From IMG/VR virus record IMGVR_UViG_3300046383_000019, positions 1 to 24,224 of that record: 24,224 nucleotides of DNA. One strand, given 5' to 3'. Shown in pieces: positions 1,743 through 23,895 of the stretch. A program made the position numbers and the translations under genes. Source of the DNA: a virus (Duplodnaviria > Caudoviricetes). The first letter of the stretch is position 1. Every line of letters begins with the position of its first letter. The notes under the pieces were generated by a model. That model made no database searches. It was not told the origin of the DNA and worked only from the letters and a program-made list of their open reading frames with translations.

Positions 1743-2597
1743 ATGGCAACGCGTAACTACAGCGACTCGATCAACCTGTATGACCGCCGCTATAAGCTGC
1801 AGGTCGATACGCTGGTAGTGACTGAGCTGCAGATAGCGTTCGAGGTGAAGCGCAGCCTCTCGGCTAAGACTGCGAATGCGGCCGAGATCAAACTCACGAA
1901 CCTATCAGGCGAGACGCGCAAGCGCCTGCAGGGCATGCGCGACGTGTTCATCTCGCTCGAGGCTGGCTATGTCGAGGGCACGAGCGTCGTGTTTAGAGGC
2001 TTGCTGCACGAGGCATTCAGCGCGCGAGAGGGCGACGAATGGGTTACGACAGTCTCGAGCCAGGACGCCGCCAAAGAGCGCAAAACAAAACGCATACAGA
2101 AAAGCTTTCCGGCCGGCACAAAAGTCGGCGACATCATCGTAGCGTGCGCAAAAGCGCTCGAGGTCGGGCTCGGCAACGTACAGAACGCGGCCGGCTCGGC
2201 CGAGCTGGTCGGCGTGACGCCGAGCACGACACAGACAGGCTACGTCGCGAGCGGCGACGCGCTATCGGCGCTCGATCGAGTGTGCCGCAGCTGCGGCATC
2301 GAATGGTCGATCCAAGACAATCAGCTGCAGCTGCTGCAGCTCGGGCAGCCGACCGGAGAGCAAGGCATCGTGTTGTCGCCCGAGTCAGGCCTCATCGGGT
2401 CGCCCGAGCTCGGCAAGGGCGGCGTCGTGCGATGCCGGACCCTCATGATCCCGAACCTACTGCCGGGCAGGCGAGTCGAGCTGCGCACTCGCCACGTGAC
2501 GGGCGTCTATCGTGTCGAAACGACGCAGCACAAGGGCGACTTCGCGAGCGTCGACAATTGGGGAATCGAGCTCGAGCTAAAGACATTCAAGCAATGA
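1743..2597 (+). CDS. Baseplate hub protein
   Basis: Start taken at ATG 1743 (MATRNY). Motifs 'FEVKRS...[11 protein letters not shown]', 'LEAGY', 'WSIQDNQL', '[11 protein letters not shown]', 'GVYRV...HKGD'. Confidence 0.8.
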
Positions 2598-2607
2598 GGT
2601 GTGTGTG

Positions 2608-2943
2608 ATGGAGATCGTAACCGCGACAGAACCTAACATCGTCGATCTTGCGCAGCCGACCGCGGCCGAGATCCTACGGCGCCTCGAGCGACGCAAGGCG
2701 CTCGAGGCTGACCTTACAGCCGTCGCGCTCGCGCATGGCGAGCCGGCGCCCGTATACGGTCCGCCCGTCTCATGGAATCCGCCCGAGCCTGAGCCAGAGC
2801 CTGAGCCGGAGCCAGAGCCTGAGCCGGAGCCAGAGCCTGAGCCTGAGCCAGAGCCTGAGCCAGAGCCAGAGCCAGAGCCCGATCCTGAACCTGAGCCGCA
2901 GCCTGAGCCGCAGCCCGAGCCGCAGCCCGAGCCCGAAGCATGA
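2608..2943 (+). CDS. Hypothetical protein with long C-terminal (Pro-Glu)n tract
   Basis: GAGGT RBS before ATG 2608. Stop overlaps the next start (ATGA). Fills the gap in the operon. Confidence 0.65.
2782..2937 (+). repeat. Hexanucleotide tandem repeat (CCNGAG)n encoding a PE/PQ tract
   Basis: Directly visible: gagcct gagcca gagcct gagccg ... with third-position variation. Confidence 0.95.
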
Positions 2944-6227: not shown

Positions 6228-7295
6228 CTAGCTCGAGGGCGTGAGCAGGTCGCTTAGCTCTGACAGGATCATGCTTGCGCCCTGTTGCGCGAGCAGGAAG
6301 ACGACATCATCGGCGCGCACGATCGCGACCGGCGATCCGGTCACGCCGTAGTGAATGCGCGTTGTCGCCTTCAGCGGGTCGTAGGCGACGTTGAGCTGCG
6401 GCGCAGCGAGGTCCGGCGCTTTCGTGAGCATGCCGCACGATGACTTTGCGCCGGCCGTGCCGCCTGCGCCGTCGCCCGAGTAGACATACATAGGGCCGTT
6501 GTAGCGTGTCCACGTGCCGACCATCGCGGCCGTCGCGCCGAAGATTGTCGAGGTCGCGACGCTGCGGAAAGGGCCGGCGCCGCCCGTCGGCAGGACCCAA
6601 GTGCAGCGGATCGCGCCGCTCGGCAGCTTGAGCGTCACACACACCTGACTGAGCACCTCGTGATAGAACATGTCGAGCACTGTGCACGTGCCCTCGGGAT
6701 GCGTCTCGAGCAGCGTCGATGTCGAGGTCGCACTATCGAACGAGTAGATCGTGGTCGGGCCGGCGCAGACAAATGTGCCGCCGATGGTCCACACGACCTT
6801 AGTAAACAGCTTCGGCGCGGTAAGCATCGTGAGGCTTGATGCTGTGCGGAACTGATAGATCGCATCGGCATCGCTCGTGCCGCCGACGGCGAGCGCATAC
6901 TGCGCCGGTGCCCTGTTAGTCGCCGCGATCGCATTGAGCACATGAGCGGCCGAGCTCGCGCCGGCGACCAGCGACCAGCTCGTGCCGAAGGTCGACTCGT
7001 AAACAGCCTCCGTGTTGCCGACGGCCATAAACCGCGCAAATGGATCCGACCAGCATACGCCGCTCATGTTGTAGCCGGCCGCGCCGACGGTCGCACTCGT
7101 GAGCACCATCGTAAACGGATTGTAAGCGAGCGCGACCTGCGAGTTTCCGACCATCACGATCGCCTCGCATGGGCGCAGCGAGCTCGCGCGCACAGCGATC
7201 GCCTTCATGGTCGCGGCCGCGTTCGCGATCGGTCGCACCTCGGCGAGCGCTCGCATCTCGATATGCTTGAGCAAGCGGTACGGACCGATCGTCAC
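6228..7295 (-). CDS. Putative receptor-binding beta-propeller protein lacking an N-terminal anchor
   Basis: GTG at 7295 overlaps the upstream stop (GTGA) with a GAGG RBS. Asp-box-like 'YESTFGTSWS' and 'FMAVG', 'VVW..GTFVCAG' blades. The start resembles the post-anchor part of 7292..8476. Confidence 0.65.
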   Translation of the reverse strand: MTIGPYRLLKHIEMRALAEVRPIANAAATMKAIAVRASSLRPCEAIVMVGNSQVALAYNPFTMVLTSATVGAAGYNMSGVCWSDPFARFMAVGNTEAVYESTFGTSWSLVAGASSAAHVLNAIAATNRAPAQYALAVGGTSDADAIYQFRTASSLTMLTAPKLFTKVVWTIGGTFVCAGPTTIYSFDSATSTSTLLETHPEGTCTVLDMFYHEVLSQVCVTLKLPSGAIRCTWVLPTGGAGPFRSVATSTIFGATAAMVGTWTRYNGPMYVYSGDGAGGTAGAKSSCGMLTKAPDLAAPQLNVAYDPLKATTRIHYGVTGSPVAIVRADDVVFLLAQQGASMILSELSDLLTPSS

Positions 7296-8476
7296 GTGAC
7301 ATACCTCGATCCCTCGATCGGCGTGCCGCAGTAGATCCGCGAGAACGTGCCGACCCGCACAGCCGCAAACCATGTCGACTGCGCGTAGCGTAACCGAAAG
7401 AGGCCATTCGGCAGCACCATCGGAATGAGGTTTGCCTCGACCGTCGGATCCGGGCAGCGGTCGAGCCGGGTCAGGTTGTATACGAAGGTCGGGCTCGAGT
7501 TAGTCGGCGAGACAAACAAGCCGATCGTCTCATCGAGCGGCATAAACCACGTCGCGATGTTCGACGGCATCCAAGCCGTCGGGCTGACAAACGACTGCCA
7601 GCTCGTGCCGTCGGCGCTGGTCGACAGGCGCGCGATGCTGCCGCTCGTGCGCTGCAGCGTGAGGATCAGCTTCTGACTCGGCGCCCATACAACGTCGTAG
7701 ATACTGAGGTTCGCCGGCAGCGTAGTCGCCGCGCTCCATACCATTGTCGACGATGGCGTCTGACACACTTGACTGTTGTTGAAGCAGAAAAACTTATCGA
7801 GCGCCGGCGCATAGATGACATTGAACGGGCCGGTTGACATCGCCGTCACGTTCGCCGAGTTCCATAAAATGCCATCGGTCGACCAGAGCGCCCTTCCGGT
7901 CGAGCCGACTGCCACGTACTTTCCGCCGCCATAGGCGAGGCGGCCCCACGTAAAGCCTGCCGTGTTGAACCGGCGTGTCCATGTGATGCCGTCGGGCGAT
8001 GTTTGAATCTCGGCGGCCGTGCCGAGCGCGACGTACAGGCCGTTCGCCCATATCACGTCGCCGAAATTGCCCGCATAAGCGCTGCCAGCGGTCGGCATCG
8101 TGACCTCATCGCGCACGGCATCGTAACGCATGATCTTCGCCGCATCGCCGACGCCGACCATGTGCAGGATGGCACCTGCAGCGTTCGTCGCGACCGCGAC
8201 CGCGCTGATCGCCATGGTCGCGGTCGACTCGGCGACAAGGATCGCATTCGCGAGGCACTGACCCTCGATCTGCTGCTCGGGCACGAGCGTCGCAACGCGC
8301 GCCGTGTTCTGGATCCAGTCGTCGATATAATCGATCCAGTCCGACCCGAGGCCGAAGATCCAGTTGAATAGCTCGGCCGTCGGCGTCTGACCGGGCGTGA
8401 ACCCTGTTGCACGCTGCGCGAGCGTCGCCGCGATGCGTGTCCCGATCCAACTCGGCTTGCTCGCTGGTCTAGTCAT
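7292..8476 (-). CDS. Tail fibre / receptor-binding protein: N-terminal anchor + Asp-box beta-propeller
   Basis: N-terminal 'RP...W...A.R.GF.P...A...NW.....W..Y'. BNR/Asp-box repeats QTSPDGITWT, WSTDGILWN, STSADGTSWQ. Confidence 0.75.
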   Translation of the reverse strand: MTRPASKPSWIGTRIAATLAQRATGFTPGQTPTAELFNWIFGLGSDWIDYIDDWIQNTARVATLVPEQQIEGQCLANAILVAESTATMAISAVAVATNAAGAILHMVGVGDAAKIMRYDAVRDEVTMPTAGSAYAGNFGDVIWANGLYVALGTAAEIQTSPDGITWTRRFNTAGFTWGRLAYGGGKYVAVGSTGRALWSTDGILWNSANVTAMSTGPFNVIYAPALDKFFCFNNSQVCQTPSSTMVWSAATTLPANLSIYDVVWAPSQKLILTLQRTSGSIARLSTSADGTSWQSFVSPTAWMPSNIATWFMPLDETIGLFVSPTNSSPTFVYNLTRLDRCPDPTVEANLIPMVLPNGLFRLRYAQSTWFAAVRVGTFSRIYCGTPIEGSRYVT

Positions 8477-8484
8477 AGAGATTC

Positions 8485-9741
8485 CTACGGCTGCGCATAG
8501 GGCCGGTTCGCCTCGCGCGGCGCCGACGCATACAGCGCGCCGACGGTCGCGCTCGTTTGCCCGACTGCATAGATGGCGTTGCCGATGATCTTCGCGGCGC
8601 GGATGTTGGCTGCCGGCATCACATAGCGGCGAGGCCTGCCTACTGCAGGGTCAGGAGCCGATACACCTGCATTGCTAACCCAGTATGTCGAGGCGCTAAA
8701 CCCGCTGCCGTAGGTGACGATCAGCATCATCTGCGCCGAGACGCCGGTTGCGCCCGGCAGAGGCACGAGCTGCGCGAGGTTCGGCACGCCGGCATACGTG
8801 TTGTCGTAGATGCTCGTGCCGCCGCCGAATGTGCCGGCGACCGTCGATAGGACATACACTCGCAGGTTGAATGGCGACGCTGTGTAACCGGCGACGAATA
8901 CGCCGAGGTCCGGATGCCATCGGGCATCCGTGACAGCCTGCAGCGCGATCGTGTTGACCAGTGTCCAAGCGACCGTTGTCGGATCGGTCGACTGATACAC
9001 GCCCGTAGTCGTGACGGCATAGAACCGGCTGAAGGGCGCGCCGGCCCATACGATTTTGCGCGGCACGAGGTTTCCGGGCAGCGCGCGCGTTGTCCATGCG
9101 CCGCCTGCCGCATCGCCGATCAGCGTTGTTCCGTTCACGCCGCCCGCATCGAGGCCGCCGACACAGTAGCGATTGAGTGTCGAGCTATAGGCGATCGTCG
9201 TGAGCGTGCTCGTGCCGCCGAGCGCCGCGAATGCCTGTGTCCAGGTGCTTACCGCGCCATCGAGCGACCAGCGCACGTTGCCGAGGGTAGAGCAGGCTAC
9301 AAACCGATCGCTGCCGCGCACCATGTCGAGGATGTCGACGCTGCCGACGCCCCACGAGTAAGTCGCCGGCGCGGCGCTGGTCGCCGGCAGGAACTGCTGC
9401 AGCAAGCCACCGTTGCCGCCTGCATAGATGCGGTCGACTACGTTGCTGGTCGTGCGCGCGGCGAGGCATGTCGGCACGATCGTCGCTGACCACTGCTGCC
9501 GCATAGGGTAGCTGGTCGCAAACGGCGCCATGAGGTTTCCCGCTGCGAGGTCGCTTGCATAGTTGTTGTCGATGTAGTCGGCAGCGTATTTAGTCCAGTT
9601 GTCCCATGTGCCGATGAGGAAGTTCTTTGCCTGCGCCGGCGCGAGCTGCGAGACCGAGAAACCAGCGGCACGCTGGGCCGGATCCGGATCCGGCCCGTAG
9701 TTGTTCCAGTCGAAAAATGGAGGTCGAGCGACCGGCATCAA
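8485..9741 (-). CDS. Tail fibre / receptor-binding protein: N-terminal anchor + beta-propeller
   Basis: Same N-terminal motif (RPPFFDW...QRAAGF...PAQAKNFLIGTWDNW). Propeller-like blades WSLDGAVSTWT, YQSTDP..WT. Confidence 0.72.
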   Translation of the reverse strand: MMPVARPPFFDWNNYGPDPDPAQRAAGFSVSQLAPAQAKNFLIGTWDNWTKYAADYIDNNYASDLAAGNLMAPFATSYPMRQQWSATIVPTCLAARTTSNVVDRIYAGGNGGLLQQFLPATSAAPATYSWGVGSVDILDMVRGSDRFVACSTLGNVRWSLDGAVSTWTQAFAALGGTSTLTTIAYSSTLNRYCVGGLDAGGVNGTTLIGDAAGGAWTTRALPGNLVPRKIVWAGAPFSRFYAVTTTGVYQSTDPTTVAWTLVNTIALQAVTDARWHPDLGVFVAGYTASPFNLRVYVLSTVAGTFGGGTSIYDNTYAGVPNLAQLVPLPGATGVSAQMMLIVTYGSGFSASTYWVSNAGVSAPDPAVGRPRRYVMPAANIRAAKIIGNAIYAVGQTSATVGALYASAPREANRPYAQP

Positions 9742-9935
9742 TAGCCGCCGATGAATTCATCGAGCCATTTCTGCCACTGGTCGATATCCCACCATAGCCA
9801 GTTCGCCGTCGCCGCACTCATGCGCCCGAGCGGCGCGAAGCCGGCTGTTTTCTCGCCGGCGCTCGGCTCGATGCGAGGGTTAGGTGCGCCGGGCGCGCTC
9901 GACCAGTCGGAGGTGGTGCTCGGGCGTGTCGCCAT
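9738..9935 (-). CDS. Stand-alone tail-fibre N-terminal anchor domain (65 aa)
   Basis: MATRPSTTSDW...IEPSAGEKTAGFAP...AATANWLWWDIDQWQKWLDE aligns by eye with the N-termini of the two following genes. Stop overlaps the next start. Confidence 0.7.
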   Translation of the reverse strand: MATRPSTTSDWSSAPGAPNPRIEPSAGEKTAGFAPLGRMSAATANWLWWDIDQWQKWLDEFIGGY

Positions 9936-10077
9936 GGCGCACCCTACAGGCGGTCAGTCGGCTAGTCCACGGGTCGACTGGCTGCTCGAGCGACCGAGCG
10001 ACCAGCCGCCCGGCTGCTCGAGCCCGAGCTCGGGCCGGTTCCCTTTTCGCGCCCGGCGCAGTAGGCCGGCGAAGACC

Positions 10078-10822: not shown

Positions 10823-11035
10823 GTCGCGCCCGAGCATGGCGCTGCGGCAGCGCCCGATCGCGCGCAGCACCCTGATCGTGCGCTCGAGCTCGCCGCCGCT
10901 GTGCGCGACCTCGATCGCGAGCCGGCATGTCTCGATCACATGGCCGATCGAGCAGCCGTCGCGCTCGGCCTCGGCGCGCAGCCATCGCGCCGTGTCTCGC
11001 GACACAGCGATCCGCAGCCGCTCGCGCTCGCTCAT
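10817..11035 (-). CDS. Small possible ribbon-helix-helix protein
   Basis: 'RLRIAVSRDTARWLRAEAERDGCSIGHVIE' beta-alpha-alpha pattern. ATGA overlap places it in the par operon. Confidence 0.55.
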   Translation of the reverse strand: MSERERLRIAVSRDTARWLRAEAERDGCSIGHVIETCRLAIEVAHSGGELERTIRVLRAIGRCRSAMLGRDL

Positions 11036-11325
11036 GAGCCGCTCGCCTTGCCGCGGCCGAGGTAGGCCTCGATCGCCTCGGCGATGGCGATCGACAACTC
11101 GACACGCTCGCCGACGCAGTGCACGCGCAGCCGCTGCCCGAGCTCGAGCGGCAGGTAAGCCGTGATCCGGTCGACCTCGCCTCGAGGCCGGGCGAGCACG
11201 CCGCGGCGCTTGCGACCGCCGCCGCTCGCCTTCGGCGCCGGGCGCGGTTTGTCAGCGGCCATCACGAAGACATCGGCGCCGCGCGGCGGTCGCACCTGCG
11301 GCCGCGCTCGTTTCGAGCTGCTCAT
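11032..11325 (-). CDS. ParG-like ribbon-helix-helix centromere-binding protein
   Basis: Basic disordered N-terminal tail, then 'RITAYLPLELGQRLRVHCV.ERVELSIAIAEAIEAYL'. ATGA overlap with parA. Confidence 0.75.
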   Translation of the reverse strand: MSSSKRARPQVRPPRGADVFVMAADKPRPAPKASGGGRKRRGVLARPRGEVDRITAYLPLELGQRLRVHCVGERVELSIAIAEAIEAYLGRGKASGS

Positions 11326-12005
11326 GCCAAGCCTCCTCCGGCGCGATCGCGTCGCCGCCGCGATCTCTTGCCGATGAGCAGGTCGATCTCGCCGGCGAGC
11401 GACCGTATCTCGGCGGCGGCCGCGCCGGCACGCTGCCAGGTCGTGACGCCGGCGCCGGCCGCGCTCGCCTCCTGATAGTCCGTGCGATAGCCGATCTCGG
11501 TCGCGAGCACGCGCAGCTTCGTTTCCTCGAGCACGCTGCGCGCCTCGCGCGCGAGCACAGTGCGCGCGATCTTTTTGGTTACGAGGATCGCCGCCTCGAG
11601 CTCAGGCCGCAGCGAGCGCGCCTGCTCGAGCAGCTGCAGCGACTCGGCGAGCGCCCAACAATCATGAGCACTCGGCCCGCATGGCAGCACAGCGAGGTCG
11701 GCGATCATGAGCGCCGCTCGCTGCACGTCGCCCACGCCGGGCGGAGGGTCGATGATCACGACATCGAACCGCGGCGCGAGGCGCGGCAGCTGCGTCGGCT
11801 GATACATCGTGCCGCCCATGGCGACCAGCGTCGGCACAGCCCGGCCGCGCTCTTGCGCGATCTCGAGCCAGGTCGAGACCGTGCGCTGCGGATCGGCATC
11901 GACCAGCAACACGGATCGGCCCTTCTCGAGCCAGTGCGCAGCGAGCGAGATCGCGACGGTCGAGCGGCCGAGGCCGCCCTTTTGCCCGGACAACGCGATG
12001 ATCAC
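11322..12005 (-). CDS. parA: ParA/ParF-family partition ATPase (type Ib)
   Basis: 'SGQKGGLGRST' deviant Walker A, 'LLVDADPQ', 'DVVIIDPPP', 'ADLAVLP..PS..D'. GTG 12005 follows a GGAGG RBS. No N-terminal HTH. Confidence 0.92.
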   Translation of the reverse strand: MIIALSGQKGGLGRSTVAISLAAHWLEKGRSVLLVDADPQRTVSTWLEIAQERGRAVPTLVAMGGTMYQPTQLPRLAPRFDVVIIDPPPGVGDVQRAALMIADLAVLPCGPSAHDCWALAESLQLLEQARSLRPELEAAILVTKKIARTVLAREARSVLEETKLRVLATEIGYRTDYQEASAAGAGVTTWQRAGAAAAEIRSLAGEIDLLIGKRSRRRRDRAGGGLA

Positions 12006-12049
12006 TGCGCCCTCCAGAGTTTCCAGGGAACGAATATATTGCACATGAG

Positions 12050-12097
12050 CAGTAGCCTAGCACGTCAGTCGACCAGTCGACTAGACGGCCGGTCAAG
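12050..12097. promoter_or_regulatory. Candidate par operator/centromere: six phased 8-bp units
   Basis: CAGTAGCC TAGCACGT CAGTCGAC CAGTCGAC TAGACGGC CGGTCAAG directly upstream of parA. Confidence 0.55.
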
Positions 12098-12158
12098 TGA
12101 TATATTGATGCGTAGCAGTCGCTGCGATGGCGCCTGCGGTACCGCTGGAGGTGTGTGA

Positions 12159-13184: not shown

Positions 13185-13463
13185 ATGCCGCATCGCAGCA
13201 AGCCGCGCCCTGTGCCCGAGCTGCAGGTCACACGAGCCGAGCGGCTCGCCTTCGGCCGCGGAATGCGCATGGCTCGCGAGGCGCTCGGGCTGCCGCTGGT
13301 CGAGGTCGCGGTCGCGCTCAATATCTCGCTCGGGCAGCTCGAGCAGCTCGAGCGCGGCGAGCTCGAGCGCACTCGCGAGCAGTTCCGGCAGGCCGCATGG
13401 TGGCTGGTATACCTGCTCGGCGACGGCTGGCTCGAGCCCGGTAGCGCCGGCGAGTATCGTTAG
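13185..13463 (+). CDS. Small XRE-type HTH protein
   Basis: 'AFGRGMRMAREALGLPLVEVAVALNISLGQLEQLERGE'. Confidence 0.75.
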   Translation: MPHRSKPRPVPELQVTRAERLAFGRGMRMAREALGLPLVEVAVALNISLGQLEQLERGELERTREQFRQAAWWLVYLLGDGWLEPGSAGEYR

Positions 13464-14440
13464 AGCCCGATGTCCGCCGATGCGTTGCCCGTGTCGAGCA
13501 GGCGCGCCTCGCGCACATACCGATCGACCATCGATCGGCCGGCCCATCGCCCTTGCTCCATGATGCGGCGATCAGTCTTACCTGCTCGCGCGGCCGAGGT
13601 CGCGAGGCCTGCGCGCAGTGAATGTCCCGAGTAGTCGCCGGCGATGGCTGCGCGGCGAGTCGAGCGCTTTACGATCAGCGCGACGCTCGCGCCGCTCAAT
13701 GACTCGCCGACACGACCATCGCGCAGCACTCGCCGGAAGATGCGGCCGCGCCGCAGTCGGGCGGCCTGCAGCCAGGCCTGCAGCGCGCGCACAGGGCAGG
13801 TTAGCGGGTCAGCGCCTCGAGCGATGCCGATGCGCACGCCGCGCGCCTCCTGGTCTGTTTTGCTGCGGCGCACCTCGAGCTCGATGCCGCCCGTCACGAA
13901 CCGCACGTCGCCGAGCTCGAGCGCGACCAGCTCACTACGGCGCAGCGCGCCGGCGAGGCCGATCGCGAGCAGCGCCCGGTCGCGCTTGCCCTGCAGCGTG
14001 CGCGGCAGGATGCGCGAGATGGCGCGCAGCTCATCGGTGACCAGCGGCGCGACGCGTCGCTGCGCTGTGCCGAGCGAGCGCCGAATGCCGGACCATAGCT
14101 GCAGGACTGCAGGGTGACGGGTCGGCGCCTCGAGGCCTGCGGTCGTGTGCCGATGCGCGATCGCAGACAGCGCCATCGAGATCGAGGCGACTTTCAAGCG
14201 CTGCGCGAGCTGCGAGAGATACAGGGCGAGCGTGTCGGGCGCGCAGGGCAGCGACGCGCGGCCGCGCTCACGAGCCCAACGCTCGAAACGGCGCCATTGC
14301 CCGGCATACTCGGCGAGCGTGCGCGGCGCGCGGCAAGCAGCGACGTAGGCCATCGCGCCGCCCATGAGCTGCTCGAGCTCGCGCTCCGGCAGGGCGAGTG
14401 CGCTCGAGCTCGGCTGCGGTCGTGACTCGCGCCGGCTCAT
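13460..14440 (-). CDS. Cre-like tyrosine recombinase / resolvase
   Basis: Catalytic motifs 'RDRALL...GALRRSEL', 'RSKTDQ', 'SGHSLRAG.AT', 'GRW...MVDRY' (W in place of the second His, as in Cre). SAM-like N-terminal domain. ATG 14440 overlaps the upstream stop. Confidence 0.92.
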   Translation of the reverse strand: MSRRESRPQPSSSALALPERELEQLMGGAMAYVAACRAPRTLAEYAGQWRRFERWARERGRASLPCAPDTLALYLSQLAQRLKVASISMALSAIAHRHTTAGLEAPTRHPAVLQLWSGIRRSLGTAQRRVAPLVTDELRAISRILPRTLQGKRDRALLAIGLAGALRRSELVALELGDVRFVTGGIELEVRRSKTDQEARGVRIGIARGADPLTCPVRALQAWLQAARLRRGRIFRRVLRDGRVGESLSGASVALIVKRSTRRAAIAGDYSGHSLRAGLATSAARAGKTDRRIMEQGRWAGRSMVDRYVREARLLDTGNASADIGL

Positions 14441-14730
14441 CGCGGCTCCTGCTCGGCGGCGCCGTCGGCATCGAGCGCCTCGAGCCGCAGCTGCAGCGCG
14501 ATCGCGCCGGCCGTTACCGCTTCCCATACAGGGTCGCCCACAGCGCGGATCCCTCGCCCGATGCACCACCGCTGCCGGAATCGGGCGAGGTCCTCGAGCG
14601 TCGCGATATTCGCTCGCATGCCATCGCGCGCGGCCGCGATGAGCTCGAGCGCCCGGTCGAGCAGCTCGCCCGAGGGCGTGTCGCTCGAGCTCGGCGCGGC
14701 AGGCTGGCCAGGGTGCGGCGATTGACTCAC
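14437..14730 (-). CDS. Hypothetical protein upstream of the recombinase
   Basis: 97-aa ORF whose stop overlaps the recombinase ATG; start uncertain. Confidence 0.5.
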   Translation of the reverse strand: MSQSPHPGQPAAPSSSDTPSGELLDRALELIAAARDGMRANIATLEDLARFRQRWCIGRGIRAVGDPVWEAVTAGAIALQLRLEALDADGAAEQEPR

Positions 14731-15462: not shown

Positions 15463-15659
15463 GTCGCGAGTCTAACCGCGCCGGCGTCGCCGCGCGCCCT
15501 CGAGGCTGCCGGGCTCGCGATGGCTGGCGCGAGCAAAGAGCGTGATCGGGTCGAGAGGCGAGAGTCGCGCGCGAGCTGCGCCGCGCCCTGATCTCTGTAG
15601 TTAACCTTATCCCCCCTCGATGCCCCTAAGAGTCTGCAGGATCCTTGTTTACTCAGGTG

Positions 15660-15857
15660 GTGACAGCTGACCGCGATCCGATCGAGCAGGCGCGGCCGCG
15701 GCCGTTTCGACTGCCGATCGGCACGCCCGAGCCGCTCGAGCTGCAGCGCGACCAGCCTCGGCGCGCCTGCAAACACTGCGCGGCTGCGCAGCAAGCGAGG
15801 CGACGGGCGCAGCTCGCCCTCGAGCGCCGCGCCCGTGATCGGCGATCGCAGCTGTAG
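15660..15857 (+). CDS. Small hypothetical CxxC protein
   Basis: GTG after AGGTG; 'ACKHC' motif; stop converges 8 bp from the stop of 15865..17034. Confidence 0.4.
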   Translation: MTADRDPIEQARPRPFRLPIGTPEPLELQRDQPRRACKHCAAAQQARRRAQLALERRARDRRSQL

Positions 15858-15864
15858 AGCGTGC

Positions 15865-17034
15865 CTACGTCGGCGCGATGGCACGGCGCAGCTCGGCGAG
15901 GCGCTCCTGCCCGTCGCGCGCAGCGCGGCGCACAGCGCGAGGGCGCAGCCGCGGAACCAGCGATACCACGCTGCGCGCGAGGTCGACTGCCAGCGCTCGC
16001 CCGAGCACCTCGGCGACGATCGGCGACTCGCAGTCCTCGAGCGGCGCGACCGTCGCGATCGTGTAGTGCGACACAGGCCAGCCGCTGCGGCCTACCTCGT
16101 GCGGATAGCAGTGCTGCTCGATCGCGGCAGGGTGTCGCCACTGCCAGGAGTCGATCGCGCCTGTGAGCCAGAGCGCCTGCAGGTAGCCGATGTCGCTATC
16201 GAGCGTGTCGCGCTCGAGCGGATCCCAGTGAGAGAGCGTGCGCTTGCTGACATGCGGCGTGCCGCAGTCACGACACACGCGATAGCCGCAGCCGGGCGGA
16301 CTCACGATCCGGGCGATCATGCATTGCGACGGCCGCTGCATGAGGCGGTCAGCCTCGCCGATGGCGACGGCGACCAGAGCGATCGCCCTCGCACGCCGGG
16401 CGTCGGACCCATGCCCGGCGAAATGGCGCGCTGCATGGCCATCCGTGCCGATGGCATGGGCGGCGAACCATGCGCGGCGCGCGAGCTCGGGCGCCGTGTC
16501 GGCGAGCCGCTCGAGCTCGCCGGCGACCGCCTCGCCGCTGACATCGAGCGCGGCGGCATGGGCGCGCGCGCTCATGTAGAGCTCGAAACGCCCTAACCCG
16601 AATGTGCCGTGCGAGAGGGCGTCGACCTCGCCGCTCGGCGAGCCGCCTGCTCGGCGACCCGTCGCGCCGTGCACGAGCTCGGCGAGCGACATCGCCTCGA
16701 TCTCTGCGCACGTGGCTGCGCGCCGCGCATGGCGCCGCTCGATCGCCGCTCGGCTCGCCGCTCGGCTCGAGGCGCCCTCGAGAGGCTGCCGCAATTGCGG
16801 GTCGCCATCGCCGGGCGAAATATTTTGTCGCGCGAGATCTGTTCCTGCGGCGCGCTCGGCCTGCCAGGCCGCAAAAGCCGCCGCGCGATCGGGCGCGTCA
16901 CGTAGCGCCATCTCGCGCACGGCAGCGGGCAGTCGGGCGAGCAGCCTCGCCTCGGCCTCGAGCATCGCCGGCAGGTCGCCGACTGTTGCTTTCGGCTGGC
17001 CTTTTCTGATGTCGTGCTCTAGTGTCCTGCTCAT
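15865..17034 (-). CDS. Hypothetical protein (389 aa) with Cys/His cluster
   Basis: Long ORF with a globular-looking C-terminal half (PPGCGYRVCRDCGTPH...GYLQAL..TGAIDSWQ...GWPVSHY). Function not recognised. Confidence 0.7.
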   Translation of the reverse strand: MSRTLEHDIRKGQPKATVGDLPAMLEAEARLLARLPAAVREMALRDAPDRAAAFAAWQAERAAGTDLARQNISPGDGDPQLRQPLEGASSRAASRAAIERRHARRAATCAEIEAMSLAELVHGATGRRAGGSPSGEVDALSHGTFGLGRFELYMSARAHAAALDVSGEAVAGELERLADTAPELARRAWFAAHAIGTDGHAARHFAGHGSDARRARAIALVAVAIGEADRLMQRPSQCMIARIVSPPGCGYRVCRDCGTPHVSKRTLSHWDPLERDTLDSDIGYLQALWLTGAIDSWQWRHPAAIEQHCYPHEVGRSGWPVSHYTIATVAPLEDCESPIVAEVLGRALAVDLARSVVSLVPRLRPRAVRRAARDGQERLAELRRAIAPT

Positions 17035-17055
17035 GCGACCCGCAGCTGTTGGCTG

Positions 17056-17172
17056 CGATTCGTAGGCGACGAACAGTGATTACTTCACACATCGTCGCTA
17101 GGGACCATCGACTGTTCTAGCAGTCGCTGGTCTCCGCCTATCGGCGCGAATCGGTGCTCTGACAATCAGAGC
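17056..17172. ncRNA. Candidate structured RNA (four-way junction plus extra hairpin)
   Basis: Closing stem CGATTCG/CGAATCG encloses hairpins 17066-17098, 17101-17134 and 17135-17146. A further hairpin GCTCTGA-CAA-TCAGAGC lies at 17156-17172. Confidence 0.5.
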
Positions 17173-17473
17173 GGTGTGCTGCTATTGGCGTACAGCGCGG
17201 CCGGCAGCTCAACCTTTATCTCCGTTGCAATCGATATATTGCGACTAGCGCGCCGTCACGCCCGTTGTGGCTGGCCTCGCGCCGGCCGAGGCGGCGGCAG
17301 GGCGGCCTCGAGCGAATTGGATCGGCGATCTGAGCCGGTCGATCCGGCGTCGATCGACGCCCGATCAGGTGCGCTGCCGGCGCAGCGACGCCGATAGCTG
17401 CGCCCATGTGAGCGATCAGCGACGCCCTCCGCCGACCGCGATCGGGGTACGATCTGTTAGTTGGGAGGGTGTA

Positions 17474-18313
17474 GTGAGCAGTAAACAGACCGTGTTTGCA
17501 GGTTGTATCGCCGGCGTAGTTGCGGCTTGCGGCGGCGCCGGGCTCGAGGGCATCGGCGACACCATGCGCGAGGCGGGCGAAGCGCTCGCCGGCGTCGGCG
17601 GCTCGATGGTCGCCGGCTCGGGCGGCGCCTCGGGCTCGGCTGCCGGCGTCGGCGGCTCGGTCGCCATGCGGCGGACTGTGGGCGGCATGCTCGCAGCTGC
17701 CGGCTCGAGCGTCGCCCATGCAGGTCGAGCGATGGCAGGCGCGGCTGCCGGCAGCGGCGGCGGCGTCGCCGGCGCCGCTGCGCAGGAGCCGCAGGCCGAT
17801 GCGCTGCCGCGGCCGCACTGGATCCTGCGAGACAAGCACGGCACGCCCATGCAGGTCGATGCGACGCCCGGCTATGCCGACACGACGCCCGGCTTCGGCG
17901 TGCAGCCTGATTGCGTCTCGATCACGCATGCCGGGCAGCGGCGCATCGGGCTCGGCTACATGCTGAGCACTGGCAAGGTCGCGCTGCCGGGCGAGTGCAA
18001 TGCGACGGGCGTGTATGATCAGCGCCCGAGCTGGCGCTCGAGCGGCGCGCTATGGTCCTTCGCCGACGCGCAGTGCGAGACGCCGCTCGCAACCTCCGCA
18101 GTGTTCATCGTCGCGATCGGCGACCAGCTTTATCACAGTCAGACAGGCGCGCCGACCGTGCCGAGCACCCTGTATCGGTGGGTTAGTGAGAGCGCGACCT
18201 GCGAGGCATTCGCAAACACGAGCAATGCGCGCATGTGGACATGGGCGCCGATGCCGAGCGAGGTCGCCGGGCTTCTATCGCAGGCGCCCTATACGCTCGA
18301 GCTCGCCTACTGA
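17474..18313 (+). CDS. Putative lipoprotein (moron)
   Basis: GGGAGG RBS, GTG start, signal peptide ending in lipobox-like VAAC, Gly/Ala linker, then a Cys-containing globular domain. Confidence 0.7.
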   Translation: MSSKQTVFAGCIAGVVAACGGAGLEGIGDTMREAGEALAGVGGSMVAGSGGASGSAAGVGGSVAMRRTVGGMLAAAGSSVAHAGRAMAGAAAGSGGGVAGAAAQEPQADALPRPHWILRDKHGTPMQVDATPGYADTTPGFGVQPDCVSITHAGQRRIGLGYMLSTGKVALPGECNATGVYDQRPSWRSSGALWSFADAQCETPLATSAVFIVAIGDQLYHSQTGAPTVPSTLYRWVSESATCEAFANTSNARMWTWAPMPSEVAGLLSQAPYTLELAY

Positions 18314-19055: not shown

Positions 19056-20297
19056 TCAGTGCGCAATAGCCTCATCGTCGGCGCCCGGCCGGCCGCTGCC
19101 ATTCAGATCCCAACCTAGGCCGGGCGCGCCCTCGAGGGCGGCCTCGCCGAACGGGTCACTGTCGCCGGCCGCCGCCTGCTCGCGCGCTCGAGCCGCCTGC
19201 AGAGCTCGCTGCACGCTGCTGCCGTGTTTGATGAGCGCGCGCAGGCGCGGTTTGTTTCGAGGGTTCGCGATGGCCGCATCGACCGCCGCGGCGTAGGCCT
19301 CGAGCGGCGCGACGCCGGCCTGCTCGAGCGGCCGGCCGGCCCATTCGCCCGAGCCCGACCAGTCGGCGAGGCGCGAGAATGAGGGCGGCTGCGCCGGCGC
19401 CTCGGTCGACTGGTCGACTGGTCGCTCGAGCGCTCGAGCGTCTGACTGCTCGGGCGCCTGATCGACTGCACGCCCGGCCGCTCGCTCGGCTCGAGCTCGC
19501 CGAGGGCGAGGCGCGGCCGCAGGCGCCGGCTGCGCGACGGCTGGCACCTGCGGCTCGGGCGCGCCCTCATTGAGCCAGGCGCCGAGCTGCGCGCCGAGCT
19601 CGCGACCCGGCCTCGCGATGGTCGCGCGGTCGAATAGCTCGCAGCGCGACTTGCTCACGAGCAGGTCGTGCGCGAGCGTGAGATCGCCGACCACGTCAAA
19701 CTCATACTCCAGTCCGTCGCGCTGTATGGGCGCTAGCCCGACCTTGCGCGGCGCCTTGCTCGAGCCGCCGCGGCCGTTGTCGACATCCTCGAGGACCCAT
19801 TCGGTCTTCGCCCGCATCGTGACGATCAGATGCATCGGCGCGGCCGTGAGAGCGTCGACTAGCCTGTTATGCTCGGGCGTGACCTCGCGCCATGCAGCAA
19901 AACTGTTGCCCGAGCGGCTGCGCGCGGTCGCCTGATCGACCATCTCGAGCGCGCCGTCGCGGCCGGCCCATGCTTGCGATAGGCCATCGACGATCAGCAC
20001 CTCGAGCCGCGCCTCGGCCGCCGCCCGGATGGCCTCGACATAGATGCGCGGCGCGAATGACTCGAGCGGCAGCGTGACAAAGTCGACGCCCTTGCCCGCA
20101 TGTTTCAGCGCCGAGCCGCGCTCGCTGTCTATGAGGCCGATGCGCGAGAGGCCGAGCTCGCGCGCGAGGCCTGCGGCGATCTGCAGGGCGGAATATGTCT
20201 TACCCGATCCGCTCGGCCCGATGAGGGCGAGCCGGGCAAGCGCACGCCGGCGCTCGGCCGGCACGAATCGCAGGGTCGATGCTGTGCTGCTCTGCAT
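19056..20297 (-). CDS. Phage AAA ATPase (AAA_24 / Sak4-like recombination protein)
   Basis: Walker A 'GPSGSGKT', 'IDSERGS', 'VLIVDGLSQAW.G.DG.L', 'HLIVTMRAK', 'GLAPIQRDGLEYEFD'. Alternative start 20309. Confidence 0.85.
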   Translation of the reverse strand: MQSSTASTLRFVPAERRRALARLALIGPSGSGKTYSALQIAAGLARELGLSRIGLIDSERGSALKHAGKGVDFVTLPLESFAPRIYVEAIRAAAEARLEVLIVDGLSQAWAGRDGALEMVDQATARSRSGNSFAAWREVTPEHNRLVDALTAAPMHLIVTMRAKTEWVLEDVDNGRGGSSKAPRKVGLAPIQRDGLEYEFDVVGDLTLAHDLLVSKSRCELFDRATIARPGRELGAQLGAWLNEGAPEPQVPAVAQPAPAAAPRPRRARAERAAGRAVDQAPEQSDARALERPVDQSTEAPAQPPSFSRLADWSGSGEWAGRPLEQAGVAPLEAYAAAVDAAIANPRNKPRLRALIKHGSSVQRALQAARAREQAAAGDSDPFGEAALEGAPGLGWDLNGSGRPGADDEAIAH

Positions 20298-22130: not shown

Positions 22131-22481
22131 ATGCAATTGCACGATTGGATCACTGCGCAACCTCGAGGCGCGATCACGAGATTGCACACGCGTACCGGCA
22201 TCGCATACGCGACCCTGCACAAAAGCTACCGCGGCAAGCGAGTGCGCTACGCGACCGCGGTCCGCATAAGCACAGCGACGGGCGGCGCCGTCTCGATCGC
22301 GGAGCTGTGCGAGCCGTCGCCGATCGCCGCGCTCGGCGACCTGCGGCGGCGCGCTCGAGGCGATGAGGGTCAGCCGCCGAAGGCGGCGATCCGCAAGCGC
22401 AAGGCAGCGCGCAAGCGCCGGAATAAGCGCTCGGCGAGCTCGAGCCGCAGCCTCGCAGGAGCCGCGCATGCAGCGGCCTAG
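22131..22481 (+). CDS. Cro/YdaS-like HTH regulator
   Basis: 'MQLHDWI...RGAITRL...TGIAYATL....G......AVRISTATGGAVSIAEL', plus a basic tail. Confidence 0.8.
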   Translation: MQLHDWITAQPRGAITRLHTRTGIAYATLHKSYRGKRVRYATAVRISTATGGAVSIAELCEPSPIAALGDLRRRARGDEGQPPKAAIRKRKAARKRRNKRSASSSRSLAGAAHAAA

Positions 22482-23895
22482 CCGGGCGGCTGCGCCGCAG
22501 CGCCGTGCCCTGCAGCGCTCGCAGCGCGAGCCGAACCCGAGCGACACTCGCGCCGATCAGTCGCCGGCGCAAGGGCGCGCTCTGCTGCGGCGCCCGGTCG
22601 GCAGGTGGGCGAAGAACTGGTCGACGTACTATGGCGCGCACTCGCCGCTCGATGGCTACGGCAGGTCAGTGCTCGCCGGCGTCACGCTGCTAGCGCAGGC
22701 ATGGGCGTCGCGTGTTGACAGTCAACAGGACAGTTCCCTGTGTTTGCTCGACCAGCCGCTCGAGGTCACGCGCAGAAAATCGTCGATGTATGAGGGCGTA
22801 TCACACAGTTTCTGCGCGCAATTCGCGTTTTGGCAGGGCAGAAAATACGCCGCCGCCGACGGGCCGAGCGAGCGCGAGGCCGAGGCTTTTGCCTACTCGG
22901 CAGCGGCGATCCGATGGCCAGATTCTGCGCCCTGCACGCTCACAGAAATCGCGCGGTATTGCGACCTGCCTCGAGCCCGAGTCGAGCGCGCGCTCGATGC
23001 GTTAGTCGACCTCGGCGAGGCCTATGTAAGTGTCGATGGCGCTTGGGTTTTAGTCAACTATTGGAGGTCGCAAGAGACGCCGAGCGCGCGCAGCAAACGA
23101 GCCGCTCGAGCAGGCGGCAGACGCGTTGACAGTCAACAGTCAGAGTGCGCGGAAAGTCACAGTGACAGTCGCGTTGACCTTCCGAGCGCCGGCGACGTTG
23201 ACAGTCCCGAGGACATTCCGTGTGACCTACAGAACAGAACAGATCTCAGAAGTAGAGATCTGCAGCGGCGGCGAGATCAGACAGGATCAGATTCTCGAGC
23301 CGCAGATGCGTGCTCGCCGGCCTCCGTACCGAGGTTGGCAACCAATTCGCGCGCGACCCTGCTCGAGCCCGAGCCGCTCGAGCTCGAGCGTGATGCCCGA
23401 TTGCGCGAGCGTGCCGATGGTTTGCTGCTTCCCGAGGCGATCGGCGCTAGCGATGAGCGGCCCGAGGTCGACGCGCCGCAGCCGGGCGCACAGGCGCCGC
23501 AACAGGGCGCGCCGATCGGCGACTCGGCGCCGGAGCATGTTGGCTATCACTGGCTACACGCCATCCTATGGCCGATCGCGACCGTGCCGGCGCCGAGCTG
23601 CGAGGGCAAATGGCGCAGCGCCTATCGCGAGATCGGCGAGCGACCTGCCGATGAGCGCGAGCGCGTCGCTGCATGCGTGCGCGCCGAGCTCATCGCCGGG
23701 CATCTCAAGCCTCGCATGTGCCATCCGCGGCATATCAGCGATCACTGGCTGTATTACCTCGCCGGCGAGCCGCCTCGAGGCAAGGGTGCGATCGCGAAGG
23801 CCGAGCAGCCGACGCAGCCGATAGCGGCGACGCGCGCAGAGTTTGTCGCCGCGGCCGAGCGGCTGCCGGCATGGATGAATGAGGCGGCGTCGTGA
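22468..23895 (+). CDS. Phage replication initiator (lambda O / replisome-organiser-like)
   Basis: AGGAG RBS; winged-HTH 'TLTEIARYCDLPRARVERALDALVDLG...DGAWVLVNYWRSQ', then 'SARSKRAAR'; internal iterons; followed by a loader ATPase. Confidence 0.75.
   Translation: MQRPSRAAAPQRRALQRSQREPNPSDTRADQSPAQGRALLRRPVGRWAKNWSTYYGAHSPLDGYGRSVLAGVTLLAQAWASRVDSQQDSSLCLLDQPLEVTRRKSSMYEGVSHSFCAQFAFWQGRKYAAADGPSEREAEAFAYSAAAIRWPDSAPCTLTEIARYCDLPRARVERALDALVDLGEAYVSVDGAWVLVNYWRSQETPSARSKRAARAGGRRVDSQQSECAESHSDSRVDLPSAGDVDSPEDIPCDLQNRTDLRSRDLQRRRDQTGSDSRAADACSPASVPRLATNSRATLLEPEPLELERDARLRERADGLLLPEAIGASDERPEVDAPQPGAQAPQQGAPIGDSAPEHVGYHWLHAILWPIATVPAPSCEGKWRSAYREIGERPADERERVAACVRAELIAGHLKPRMCHPRHISDHWLYYLAGEPPRGKGAIAKAEQPTQPIAATRAEFVAAAERLPAWMNEAAS
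23121..23295. other. Putative replication origin inside the initiator gene
   Basis: GTTGAC/TGACAGTC repeats at 23125, 23163, 23173 and 23197, followed by purine-skewed AGAAC/AGATC repeats. Confidence 0.65.

What the first reader, a model, noticed from the sequence alone, without database searches (positions are those of the whole stretch)
17041..17172. Cloverleaf-like structured RNA upstream of the unknown 389-aa gene
Seen: stem CGATTCG(17056-62)/CGAATCG(17147-53) closes three hairpins: GCGACGA-aca-GTGA-ttact-TCAC-aca-TCGTCGC, GGGACCA-t-CGACTG-ttctag-CAGTCG-c-TGGTCTC, and CGCC-tatc-GGCG. A further hairpin follows at 17156-72. An alternative hairpin CGCAGC-tgttg-GCTGCG (17041-57) lies just upstream of the start codon and overlaps the closing stem. 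No tRNA T-loop consensus. Inference: an antisense/attenuator RNA analogous to P1 C4, P4 CI RNA or plasmid copy-control RNAs, or a new cis-regulatory motif.
Basis: partly seen in the sequence, partly recalled or inferred. Interest (0 to 1): 0.7.

Follow-up and report, generated by a model that had tools for sequence, protein, structure and literature searches.

The report
Antisense hairpin RNA before phage rep
A 140-base run of five strong hairpins sits in front of an uncharacterised gene, predicted to encode a DNA-binding protein, in an uncultured soil phage; it likely acts as a small backward-transcribed RNA that limits this gene, which likely starts replication of the phage as a plasmid.

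Summary
The hairpins are real: z about -7 on both strands, the best-folding of 371 windows in the contig, with no Rfam or tRNA match. Hairpins H1-H4 are robust; the closing stem that makes the 'cloverleaf' depends on the RNA ends. The 389-aa gene belongs to a rare, unnamed family predicted to be winged-helix with a Cys-rich insert. It travels with a conserved non-coding tract downstream (origin candidate) through two phages, a 15-kb circular element and a plasmid-like contig. In both close homologues the leader is also structured and holds an intrinsic terminator pointing antisense (1 of 2 strict terminators in 45 kb; 1 of 1 in 17 kb). The sister phage shows a similar hairpin order on that strand. 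Hairpin H2 is also the contig's best array of an octamer repeat scattered through these ParA phages (likely parS/operator). Best reading: a plasmid-style copy-control antisense RNA of a phage-plasmid replicon (0.45). Against: no expression data, no covariation, no U-tract in this copy, covariance-model search misses the sister copy, and the initiator role is inferred. Not a C4/CI member. New variant of a known kind.

The parts
17034..17173 (+). Structured element, candidate antisense (countertranscript) RNA, five hairpins H0-H4
   Evidence: -71.3 kcal/mol, z -6.36 on +; -65.4, z -5.31 on -; rank 1 of 371 windows; six G-U pairs on + against one on - (my count from folds)
17034..17064 (+). H0, extended hairpin; on the mRNA strand its 3' arm ends at the A of the first AUG (17034)
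   Evidence: one contig of run X3 (depth 2.7, may be an error) has 17040 C>T, which adds a pair
17056..17153 (.). Closing stem P1 (17056-62 with 17147-53), competes with the lower stem of H0
   Evidence: probability 0.16-1.00 (+) and 0.42-0.77 (-) depending on RNA ends
17065..17099 (+). H1: 8-bp stem, 3x3 internal loop, 4-bp stem, 5-nt loop
   Evidence: X3 contig differs at 17084, in the loop
17101..17134 (+). H2 hairpin, which is also a four-unit array of the dispersed octamer (two full units at 17110-17125, one-base-short units on each side)
   Evidence: top 4-unit array of the contig (34.6 bits) with a matrix trained only on sister phages G001 and L021; 0 of 1500 simulated 172-nt sequences reach it
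17135..17146 (+). H3, 4-bp tetraloop hairpin
17156..17172 (+). H4, 7-bp hairpin at the position where the sister phage has its terminator; no U-tract here
17020..17025 (+). TAGTGT, weak candidate -10 box for the antisense RNA, inside the first codons of the gene
   Evidence: one of only two TAnnnT hexamers in 16950-17330 on either strand (about two expected by chance); no sigma-70 promoter passes the scan
17225..17244 (.). A+T-rich imperfect inverted repeat, candidate operator or promoter region of the leader
   Evidence: a 12-mer half is found 1 mismatch away near the homologous locus of G001
15865..17034 (-). 389-aa gene, unnamed family, predicted winged helix (about residues 208-330) with Cys-rich insert; candidate replication initiator; start could also be 16965
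   Evidence: 16 representatives besides the window's own protein at E<=0.001; no Pfam at 0.05 for it, no PHROG; AF2 pLDDT 72.4; best structural matches all winged-helix-type, Z 5-5.9, tied and modest
15803..15836 (-). Conserved hairpin about 30 nt after the stop codon
   Evidence: 12 of its 14 predicted pairs keep the commonest pair or a compatible one in all 3 loci, most with no variation
15590..15665 (-). Conserved lower-GC non-coding core 200-275 nt downstream of the gene, origin candidate
   Evidence: aligned in 3 loci; ACTCTT at +232, +220, +223, +205 in 4 of 4 loci, GC minimum 0.47-0.55 at +200-260

Best explanation
The hairpin row is likely the gene of a small antisense RNA, transcribed on the + strand from about 17032 across the leader of the 389-aa gene, that would pair with that gene's mRNA and hold down a protein predicted to be a winged-helix replication initiator of a phage that likely persists as a plasmid. 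Shown: the hairpins, their position opposite the leader and first AUG, the conserved downstream tract, the antisense terminators in two homologues, ParA and a Cre-like tyrosine recombinase nearby. Inferred: transcription, strand, initiator function, origin function. Because the RNA would reach the start codon and modelling shows no refolding effect, direct blocking of the translation start (or RNase III-type decay of the duplex) is more likely than attenuation. The octamer array inside H2 would let the small protein encoded after parA bind the same DNA and add a second layer of control.
For: (1) Folding far above chance with a modest + strand bias (6 vs 1 G-U). (2) Leaders of both close homologues also fold (best z -4.9 in L003, -5.0 in L004) whereas the three downstream regions do not (none below -2.6). 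(3) Antisense-oriented intrinsic terminators in those leaders: L003 7656-7629 and L004 7504-7475; under a strict scan these are 1 of 2 in the 45.3-kb G001 genome and 1 of 1 in the 16.9-kb L004. (4) The antisense strand of L003 folds as stem-internal-loop hairpin, one A, a hairpin holding an octamer unit, a small tetraloop hairpin, then the terminator, the order of H1-H2-H3-H4; that site ranks 22 of 1150 G001 sites for shape likeness to H1-H3. (5) Initiator-like module: predicted winged helix; gene plus about 330 nt of downstream non-coding DNA conserved at 71% mean identity in two phages and a contig with FtsK, ParE, Tn3 and IS21 genes; inverted relative to the recombinase between the two phages; a distant member lies on a complete 15.5-kb circle with a tyrosine recombinase and ORFs whose N-termini read like a ParA and a helicase (my reading, not scanned). 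(6) The complete G001 genome shows no polymerase, primase, replicative helicase or known initiator among the 49 ORFs scanned against PHROGs (tail/baseplate genes matched to the window were left out). (7) The layout antisense RNA - rep - ori downstream is that of pIP501 (PMC4981023, abstract and passages).
Against: No RNA run holds the stretch, so expression is untested. H4 has no U-tract and no terminator passes here; no sigma-70 promoter passes. No sequence homologue of the element was found, so covariation could not be tested; a covariance model of the element does not find the L003 copy (nearest hit 9 bits, E 2.3, out of register) and a plain alignment does not put the hairpins in register. 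The distant member L030 has no leader folding above z -2.1 and no strict terminator in its leader. The antisense terminators could instead stop read-through from distant opposite-strand operons. The protein has no named relative and winged helices are mostly transcription regulators; the window also has a second initiator-like ORF at 22363-23895 (weak primosomal-protein hit). 4 of 5 related elements lack the family.
Confidence: 0.45

Rival explanations
1. The element works as DNA: a cluster of palindromic protein-binding sites (H2 being a parS/operator array for the small protein after parA) and/or single-strand hairpins used as a priming or cruciform signal; RNA folding is a by-product.
For: H2 is the best octamer array in the contig, ahead of the array upstream of parA (34.6 vs 26.9 bits); G001 has an array at the same place in its leader (27222). 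Folding as DNA is as significant as folding as RNA and nearly symmetric between strands.
Against: Without H2 the rest still folds at z -4.9/-4.2. H0, H1, H3, H4 carry internal loops and G-U pairs and hold only one weak unit. The outer octamer units are each one base short, which keeps the hairpin but breaks the 8-bp phase. Homologous leaders end in U-tailed terminators, an RNA feature.
Confidence: 0.2
2. The structure acts only in cis in the mRNA leader (- strand): the closing stem and H0 alternate to hide or expose the translation start, without any antisense RNA.
For: H0 ends at the first AUG; the closing stem is favoured on the - strand (0.42-0.77) and competes with the lower H0 stem.
Against: G-U pairs favour the + strand; terminators of homologues point antisense; blocking the closing stem hardly changes accessibility of -12..+3 (for example 0.29 to 0.31); no ligand-binding motif in Rfam.
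Confidence: 0.15
3. It is an antisense RNA, but its target is an ordinary transcription regulator or immunity gene (P1 C4 / P4 CI style) and not a replication initiator.
For: Winged-helix matches are mostly regulators (Fur, PerR, TFE, MarR); a second initiator candidate exists in the window.
Against: The conserved long downstream tract and the movement of the module between phages and plasmid-like elements fit a replicon; no repeated loop-complementary targets; no C4-type Rfam hit.
Confidence: 0.12
4. The hairpins are incidental: a recent pile-up of terminator remnants and repeats at a recombination junction, since the module is inverted here relative to the sister phage.
For: No sequence homologue anywhere searched; the element lies at the edge of the inverted block; one low-depth contig of run X3 shows an opposite-strand joint 16442/16997 (may be a chimera).
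Against: z about -7, rank 1 of 371; structured leaders and antisense terminators recur in both close homologues.
Confidence: 0.08

Closest known systems
pIP501 RNAIII / repR / oriR with CopR (Inc18 plasmids; PMC4981023, abstract and passages)
   Same: Layout: antisense RNA of about 136 nt over the rep leader, rep gene, origin directly downstream; a DNA-binding protein adds a second control layer.
   Different: RepR is unrelated to this protein as far as searches show; RNAIII works by attenuation, for which no terminator is seen on this mRNA; no U-tailed end in this copy; here on a phage.
pSK41 RNAI / RepA_N and pT181 RNAI (PMC5703833, passages)
   Same: Small counter-transcribed RNA of 83-87 nt complementary to the leader of a rep gene; RepA_N has a winged helix.
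   Different: pSK41 ori is inside rep; those RNAs have two stem-loops; no Pfam RepA_N match for this family.
parABS cluster A mycobacteriophages such as Miko and RedRock (PMC7157519, part 2 of 8 of the text and passages)
   Same: Plasmid prophage with ParA, 8-bp repeat parS arrays and a 320-350-aa RepA-like gene with a helix-turn-helix; an extra parS lies beside repA in Miko and Rachaly.
   Different: No antisense leader RNA described in the passages read; their RepA family was not matched by this protein (no phage hit at E<=1); most of those phages use an RNA-based origin without Rep.
P1 C4 and P4 CI antisense RNAs (recalled; Rfam tested)
   Same: Multi-hairpin phage RNA of similar size.
   Different: No Rfam hit; no repeated target sites matching the loops; not beside a recognisable antirepressor; those RNAs are cut from the sense transcript (recalled).
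Type Ib partition centromere/operator repeats (TP228 ParG, pSM19035 omega; recalled, with a passage on pSM19035)
   Same: Short repeats in direct and inverted tandem, dispersed and present at the parA promoter region and in the control region of replication.
   Different: Unit GACYRGTC-like octamer; the binding protein is not identified (97-aa ORF after parA has no Pfam or PHROG hit); here one array doubles as an RNA hairpin.

Membership tests
Countertranscript-controlled plasmid replicon | Small RNA actually transcribed antisense to the rep leader | not testable with these tools
   only DNA runs hold the stretch
Countertranscript-controlled plasmid replicon | Antisense promoter at the downstream end of the leader | tested here: inconclusive
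   TAGTGT at 17020 is well placed but weak; no sigma-70 match
Countertranscript-controlled plasmid replicon | Intrinsic terminator ending the antisense RNA | tested here: inconclusive
   absent in the window (H4 has no U-tract) and in distant L030 leader; present in L003 and L004: 2 of 4 loci
Countertranscript-controlled plasmid replicon | Target gene encodes a replication initiator | tested here: inconclusive
   predicted winged helix, Z 5-5.9; no named Rep family matched
Countertranscript-controlled plasmid replicon | Linked origin | tested here: inconclusive
   conserved lower-GC tract downstream; function untested
Rfam ctRNA / CopA / RNAI families | Covariance-model score above the family cut-off | tested here: not met
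   0 hits at gathering; none among the 2 hits at E<=10
P1 C4 / c4-2 / P4 CI RNA | Rfam match | tested here: not met
P1 C4 / c4-2 / P4 CI RNA | Loops complementary to repeated target sites in the flanking transcript | tested here: not met
   exact matches of 9 nt or more to 17030-17215 are scattered genome-wide; the near ones are a 10-mer at 16796 and a 9-mer at 17389, single and of chance length
P1 C4 / c4-2 / P4 CI RNA | Processing by RNase P from a precursor | not testable with these tools
   needs RNA
tRNA / tmRNA | ARAGORN cloverleaf with T-loop | tested here: not met
   0 genes
DUF805 RNA motif | Rfam RF03081 score above 51.1 bits | tested here: not met
   15.4 bits, E 5.9
Type Ib parS/operator array (H2 only) | Tandem phased short repeats, also found upstream of parA and dispersed | tested here: met
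   arrays at 12071, 17110, 19408 in the window, 14 listed sites at 16 bits or more in G001, 5 in L021
Type Ib parS/operator array (H2 only) | Bound by the ribbon-helix-helix partner of ParA | not testable with these tools
   97-aa ORF 11032-11325 is 63% identical over 51 aa to its G001 counterpart; the ribbon-helix-helix label is my reading of the sequence, no library hit

The most novel reading that the evidence does not exclude
A new family of winged-helix/zinc-finger initiators defines an undescribed replicon shared by phage-plasmids, satellites and plasmids of GC-rich soil bacteria, and its copy-control RNA has a partition-protein binding array built into one of its hairpins, so the same 30 bases act as DNA operator and as RNA stem and tie segregation directly to the making of the replication brake.
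Probability: 0.2. Interest if true: 0.65.

Novelty: new variant of a known kind. Interest (0 to 1): 0.45.

Why it matters
Antisense control of initiator genes is a known design, so the mechanism class would not surprise a specialist. The value lies in the parts: an RNA absent from Rfam, an initiator candidate absent from Pfam, PHROGs and the plasmid and phage collections searched, and a compact module (leader, gene, downstream tract, about 1.8 kb) that can be tested directly as a replicon. If the host is a myxobacterium (my guess from GC content and gene style; not tested), it would matter for tools, since pMF1 was described in 2018 as the only endogenous plasmid found in myxobacteria (PMC6091211, passages). 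The dual DNA/RNA use of hairpin H2 would be an unusual way to couple partition and copy control.

Tried and rejected
Homologues of the element by sequence: none in phages or plasmids by distant blastn (best E 0.9 and 3); a gapped pattern in viral contigs gave 11 loci, all chance on inspection; none in G001 or ten stretches of related loci beyond a 28-nt octamer-array match. A single-sequence covariance model gave only weak hits (best 19.2 bits at another octamer array upstream of G001 parA; 22.3 bits in L027), not the syntenic copy. More loci for the gene: 1 viral, 1 metagenome, 0 GTDB genome loci; a pattern for the downstream hairpin found only G001; the other 13 protein relatives have no DNA context here. 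No RNA holder listed for the stretch; run X1 may be the source sample; X2 covers parts of the gene only; X3 has one 210-nt contig over 16997-17167 at depth 2.7, too thin to count as covariation. First structure prediction from 3 sequences was unusable (pLDDT 40); Foldseek on the better model gave nothing under E 1.6; the Atlas gave no usable hit. Rolling-circle/HUH initiator, suggested by the Cys motif, is not supported by the fold search (inconclusive). Integron attC and ssoA CS-6 readings were considered from memory and dropped: no matching core-site pair, and a single hexamer is chance-level. Antisense-induced refolding of the start region was modelled and not seen. Four literature searches listed nothing on this element or family; only listings were seen for papers other than the four cited, and no supplements were read.

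Full report
Setting. The window is a 24.2-kb linear virus record, about half complete, 61-75% GC. It holds baseplate and tail genes, a ParA ATPase (11322-12044), a tyrosine recombinase (13460-14569), an AAA_24/Gp157 pair and HTH regulators. The finding lies between the 389-aa gene (15865-17034, -) and a lipoprotein-like gene on the + strand. The host is not known; a myxobacterium is my guess and was not tested.

The observation. The stretch folds at z -7.06 (+) and -7.30 (-) as RNA and -7.55/-7.77 as DNA and is the best of 371 windows of the contig. There is no tRNA and no Rfam family. The real 5' boundary on + is 17034, where H0 extends over the complement of the first AUG; this longer H0 competes with the closing stem. 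H1-H4 are stable whatever the ends (0.98 or more on +), the closing stem is not (0.16-1.00 on +, 0.42-0.77 on -). Over 17034-17173 the + strand folds better than the - strand (-71.3 against -65.4 kcal/mol) and by my count carries six G-U pairs against one, a modest hint that the antisense strand is the selected one. The only TAnnnT hexamers within 16950-17330 are on +, one of them 14 nt before the element; about two are expected by chance, so this is weak.

The gene. Word-based searches found two relatives; the exhaustive profile search found 16 representatives, none with a Pfam family of note. With 17 sequences AlphaFold2 reached pLDDT 72.4, and the 50 listed structural matches are dominated by winged-helix domains covering about residues 208-330 (best Z 5.9, rmsd 3.6, 92 aligned; tied and modest). 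Cysteines C238, C254, C257 and H261 are invariant in the five closest members. No match was found in plasmid or phage collections.

The module. DNA context was obtained for three relatives: L003 in the complete 45.3-kb sister phage G001, L004 on a metagenome contig with FtsK, ParE, Tn3 and IS21 genes, and the distant L030 on a complete 15.5-kb circle, found through its tyrosine recombinase, with ORFs that read like a ParA and a helicase by eye. About 330 nt of non-coding DNA after the stop codon align in the first three (71% mean column identity over the 420-nt stretch that includes the last codons), with a conserved hairpin and a lower-GC core; ACTCTT sits 205-232 nt after the stop in 4 of 4 loci. 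The gene and tract are inverted relative to the recombinase between window and G001. G001 shows no known replication gene among 49 ORFs scanned. A DNA-binding gene that moves with its own downstream tract among ParA-bearing circular elements is what a plasmid replicon looks like; this is inference. Against it, 4 of 5 other related elements lack the family and the window has a second initiator-like ORF at 22363-23895.

The leaders. The element has no sequence homologue. Yet the leaders of L003 and L004 fold (best z -4.9 and -5.0) while all three downstream regions do not, and each holds a U-tailed terminator pointing away from the gene, that is on the antisense strand. Such terminators are rare in these genomes: 2 in all of G001, 1 in L004's 16.9 kb, and the leader copy is one of them in each. 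On that strand L003 folds as an internal-loop hairpin, one A, a hairpin containing an octamer unit, a tetraloop hairpin and the terminator, the order of H1-H4 here. The likeness is moderate: rank 22 of 1150 G001 sites by tree-edit distance, with the window size chosen knowing the site; a covariance model built from the window copy does not recover it. In the window H4 lacks the U-tract, and L030's leader shows neither strong folding nor a strict terminator.

The octamer. These phages carry dispersed tandem arrays of a pseudo-palindromic 8-mer (GACCAGTC-like), including upstream of parA. A matrix trained only on G001 and L021 scores the centre of H2 third among two-unit sites of the window and, allowing one missing base in each outer unit, first among four-unit sites (34.6 bits; 0 of 1500 simulated sequences). 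G001 has an array in the same leader. So H2 is at least partly explained as a DNA site, probably for the small protein after parA (binding untested; ribbon-helix-helix label from my reading). It does not explain the rest: without H2 the element still folds at z -4.9/-4.2.

Mechanism. The best-supported reading is a countertranscribed RNA over the leader and start of an initiator gene with its origin downstream, as in pIP501 (PMC4981023, abstract and passages) and, for leader-complementary RNAs of 83-87 nt, pT181 and pSK41 (PMC5703833, passages). Blocking H1-H4 or H2-H4 of the mRNA in silico removes the closing stem and firms H0 but leaves the start region about equally paired, so direct occlusion or duplex decay is more likely than a refolding switch. 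I put this at 0.45; DNA-level sites at 0.20; a cis-only leader at 0.15; an antisense RNA on a non-initiator gene at 0.12; incidental at 0.08.

Membership and novelty. It is not a member of any Rfam family, not a tRNA, and fails the C4/CI tests that could be run. It probably works like a plasmid countertranscript, but transcription, promoter, terminator in this copy, initiator and origin function are unproven. Plasmid prophages with 8-bp parS repeats and a RepA-like gene are known (PMC7157519, part 2 of 8 and passages). Four searches listed nothing on this family. Earlier AI notes of this scan describe similar designs in other genomes; they were read after my own tests, were not checked, and suggest the design is common among uncultured phage-plasmids. 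Verdict: real, new sequence and probably new initiator family, known kind of control; interest 0.45.

Noticed in passing
window 12047-12120, 9960-9990, 19400-19423; G001 14 sites; L021 5 sites: Dispersed tandem arrays of a GACCAGTC-like octamer in this phage group, one upstream of parA; likely parS/operator sites. L024 has a variant unit (GACTACTC) at 10971.
   Followed up: partly
window 15500-15860 (-); L003 8850-9200; L004 8890-9250; L030 downstream: Conserved non-coding tract after the 389-aa family gene with a hairpin, a poly-G run, ACTCTT and AGATC motifs; origin candidate.
   Followed up: partly
G006 (L025, L030), 15.5-kb complete circle: Small element with a distant member of the winged-helix family, a tyrosine recombinase and ORFs that read by eye like a ParA, a DEAD-type helicase, a Uma2-like protein and a head-protease-like protein; looks like a satellite-plasmid.
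   Followed up: partly
window 22363-23895 (+): Long ORF with weak HTH and primosomal-protein hits, a second initiator-like gene not matched in the sister phage G001.
   Followed up: no
window 6228-9935 (-): Three to four long genes without Pfam or PHROG hits lie opposite to the tail operon, also in G001 and L021; they read like beta-propeller tail-fibre or receptor-binding proteins.
   Followed up: no
window 2599-2943 (+): Short ORF with a long (Glu-Pro)n repeat between baseplate hub and spike genes.
   Followed up: no
window 17225-17244, 12034-12043, 12099-12109, 20950, 22113: Recurring GCAATATATC-like A+T-rich motif, inverted repeat at 17225-44; possible operator or promoter element, also near the homologous locus of G001.
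   Followed up: partly
window 16442/16997: One 210-nt contig of run X3 (depth 2.7) joins these places on opposite strands; chimera or local inversion.
   Followed up: no
window 2081-2210: Second-best folding window (z -5.75) inside the baseplate hub gene; an A-rich stretch probably inflates the score.
   Followed up: no
window 17474-18313 (+): Lipoprotein-like gene (Gly/Ala-rich N-terminus after a Cys) with a TACGAT hexamer upstream in both the window and G001; no Pfam or PHROG hit.
   Followed up: no
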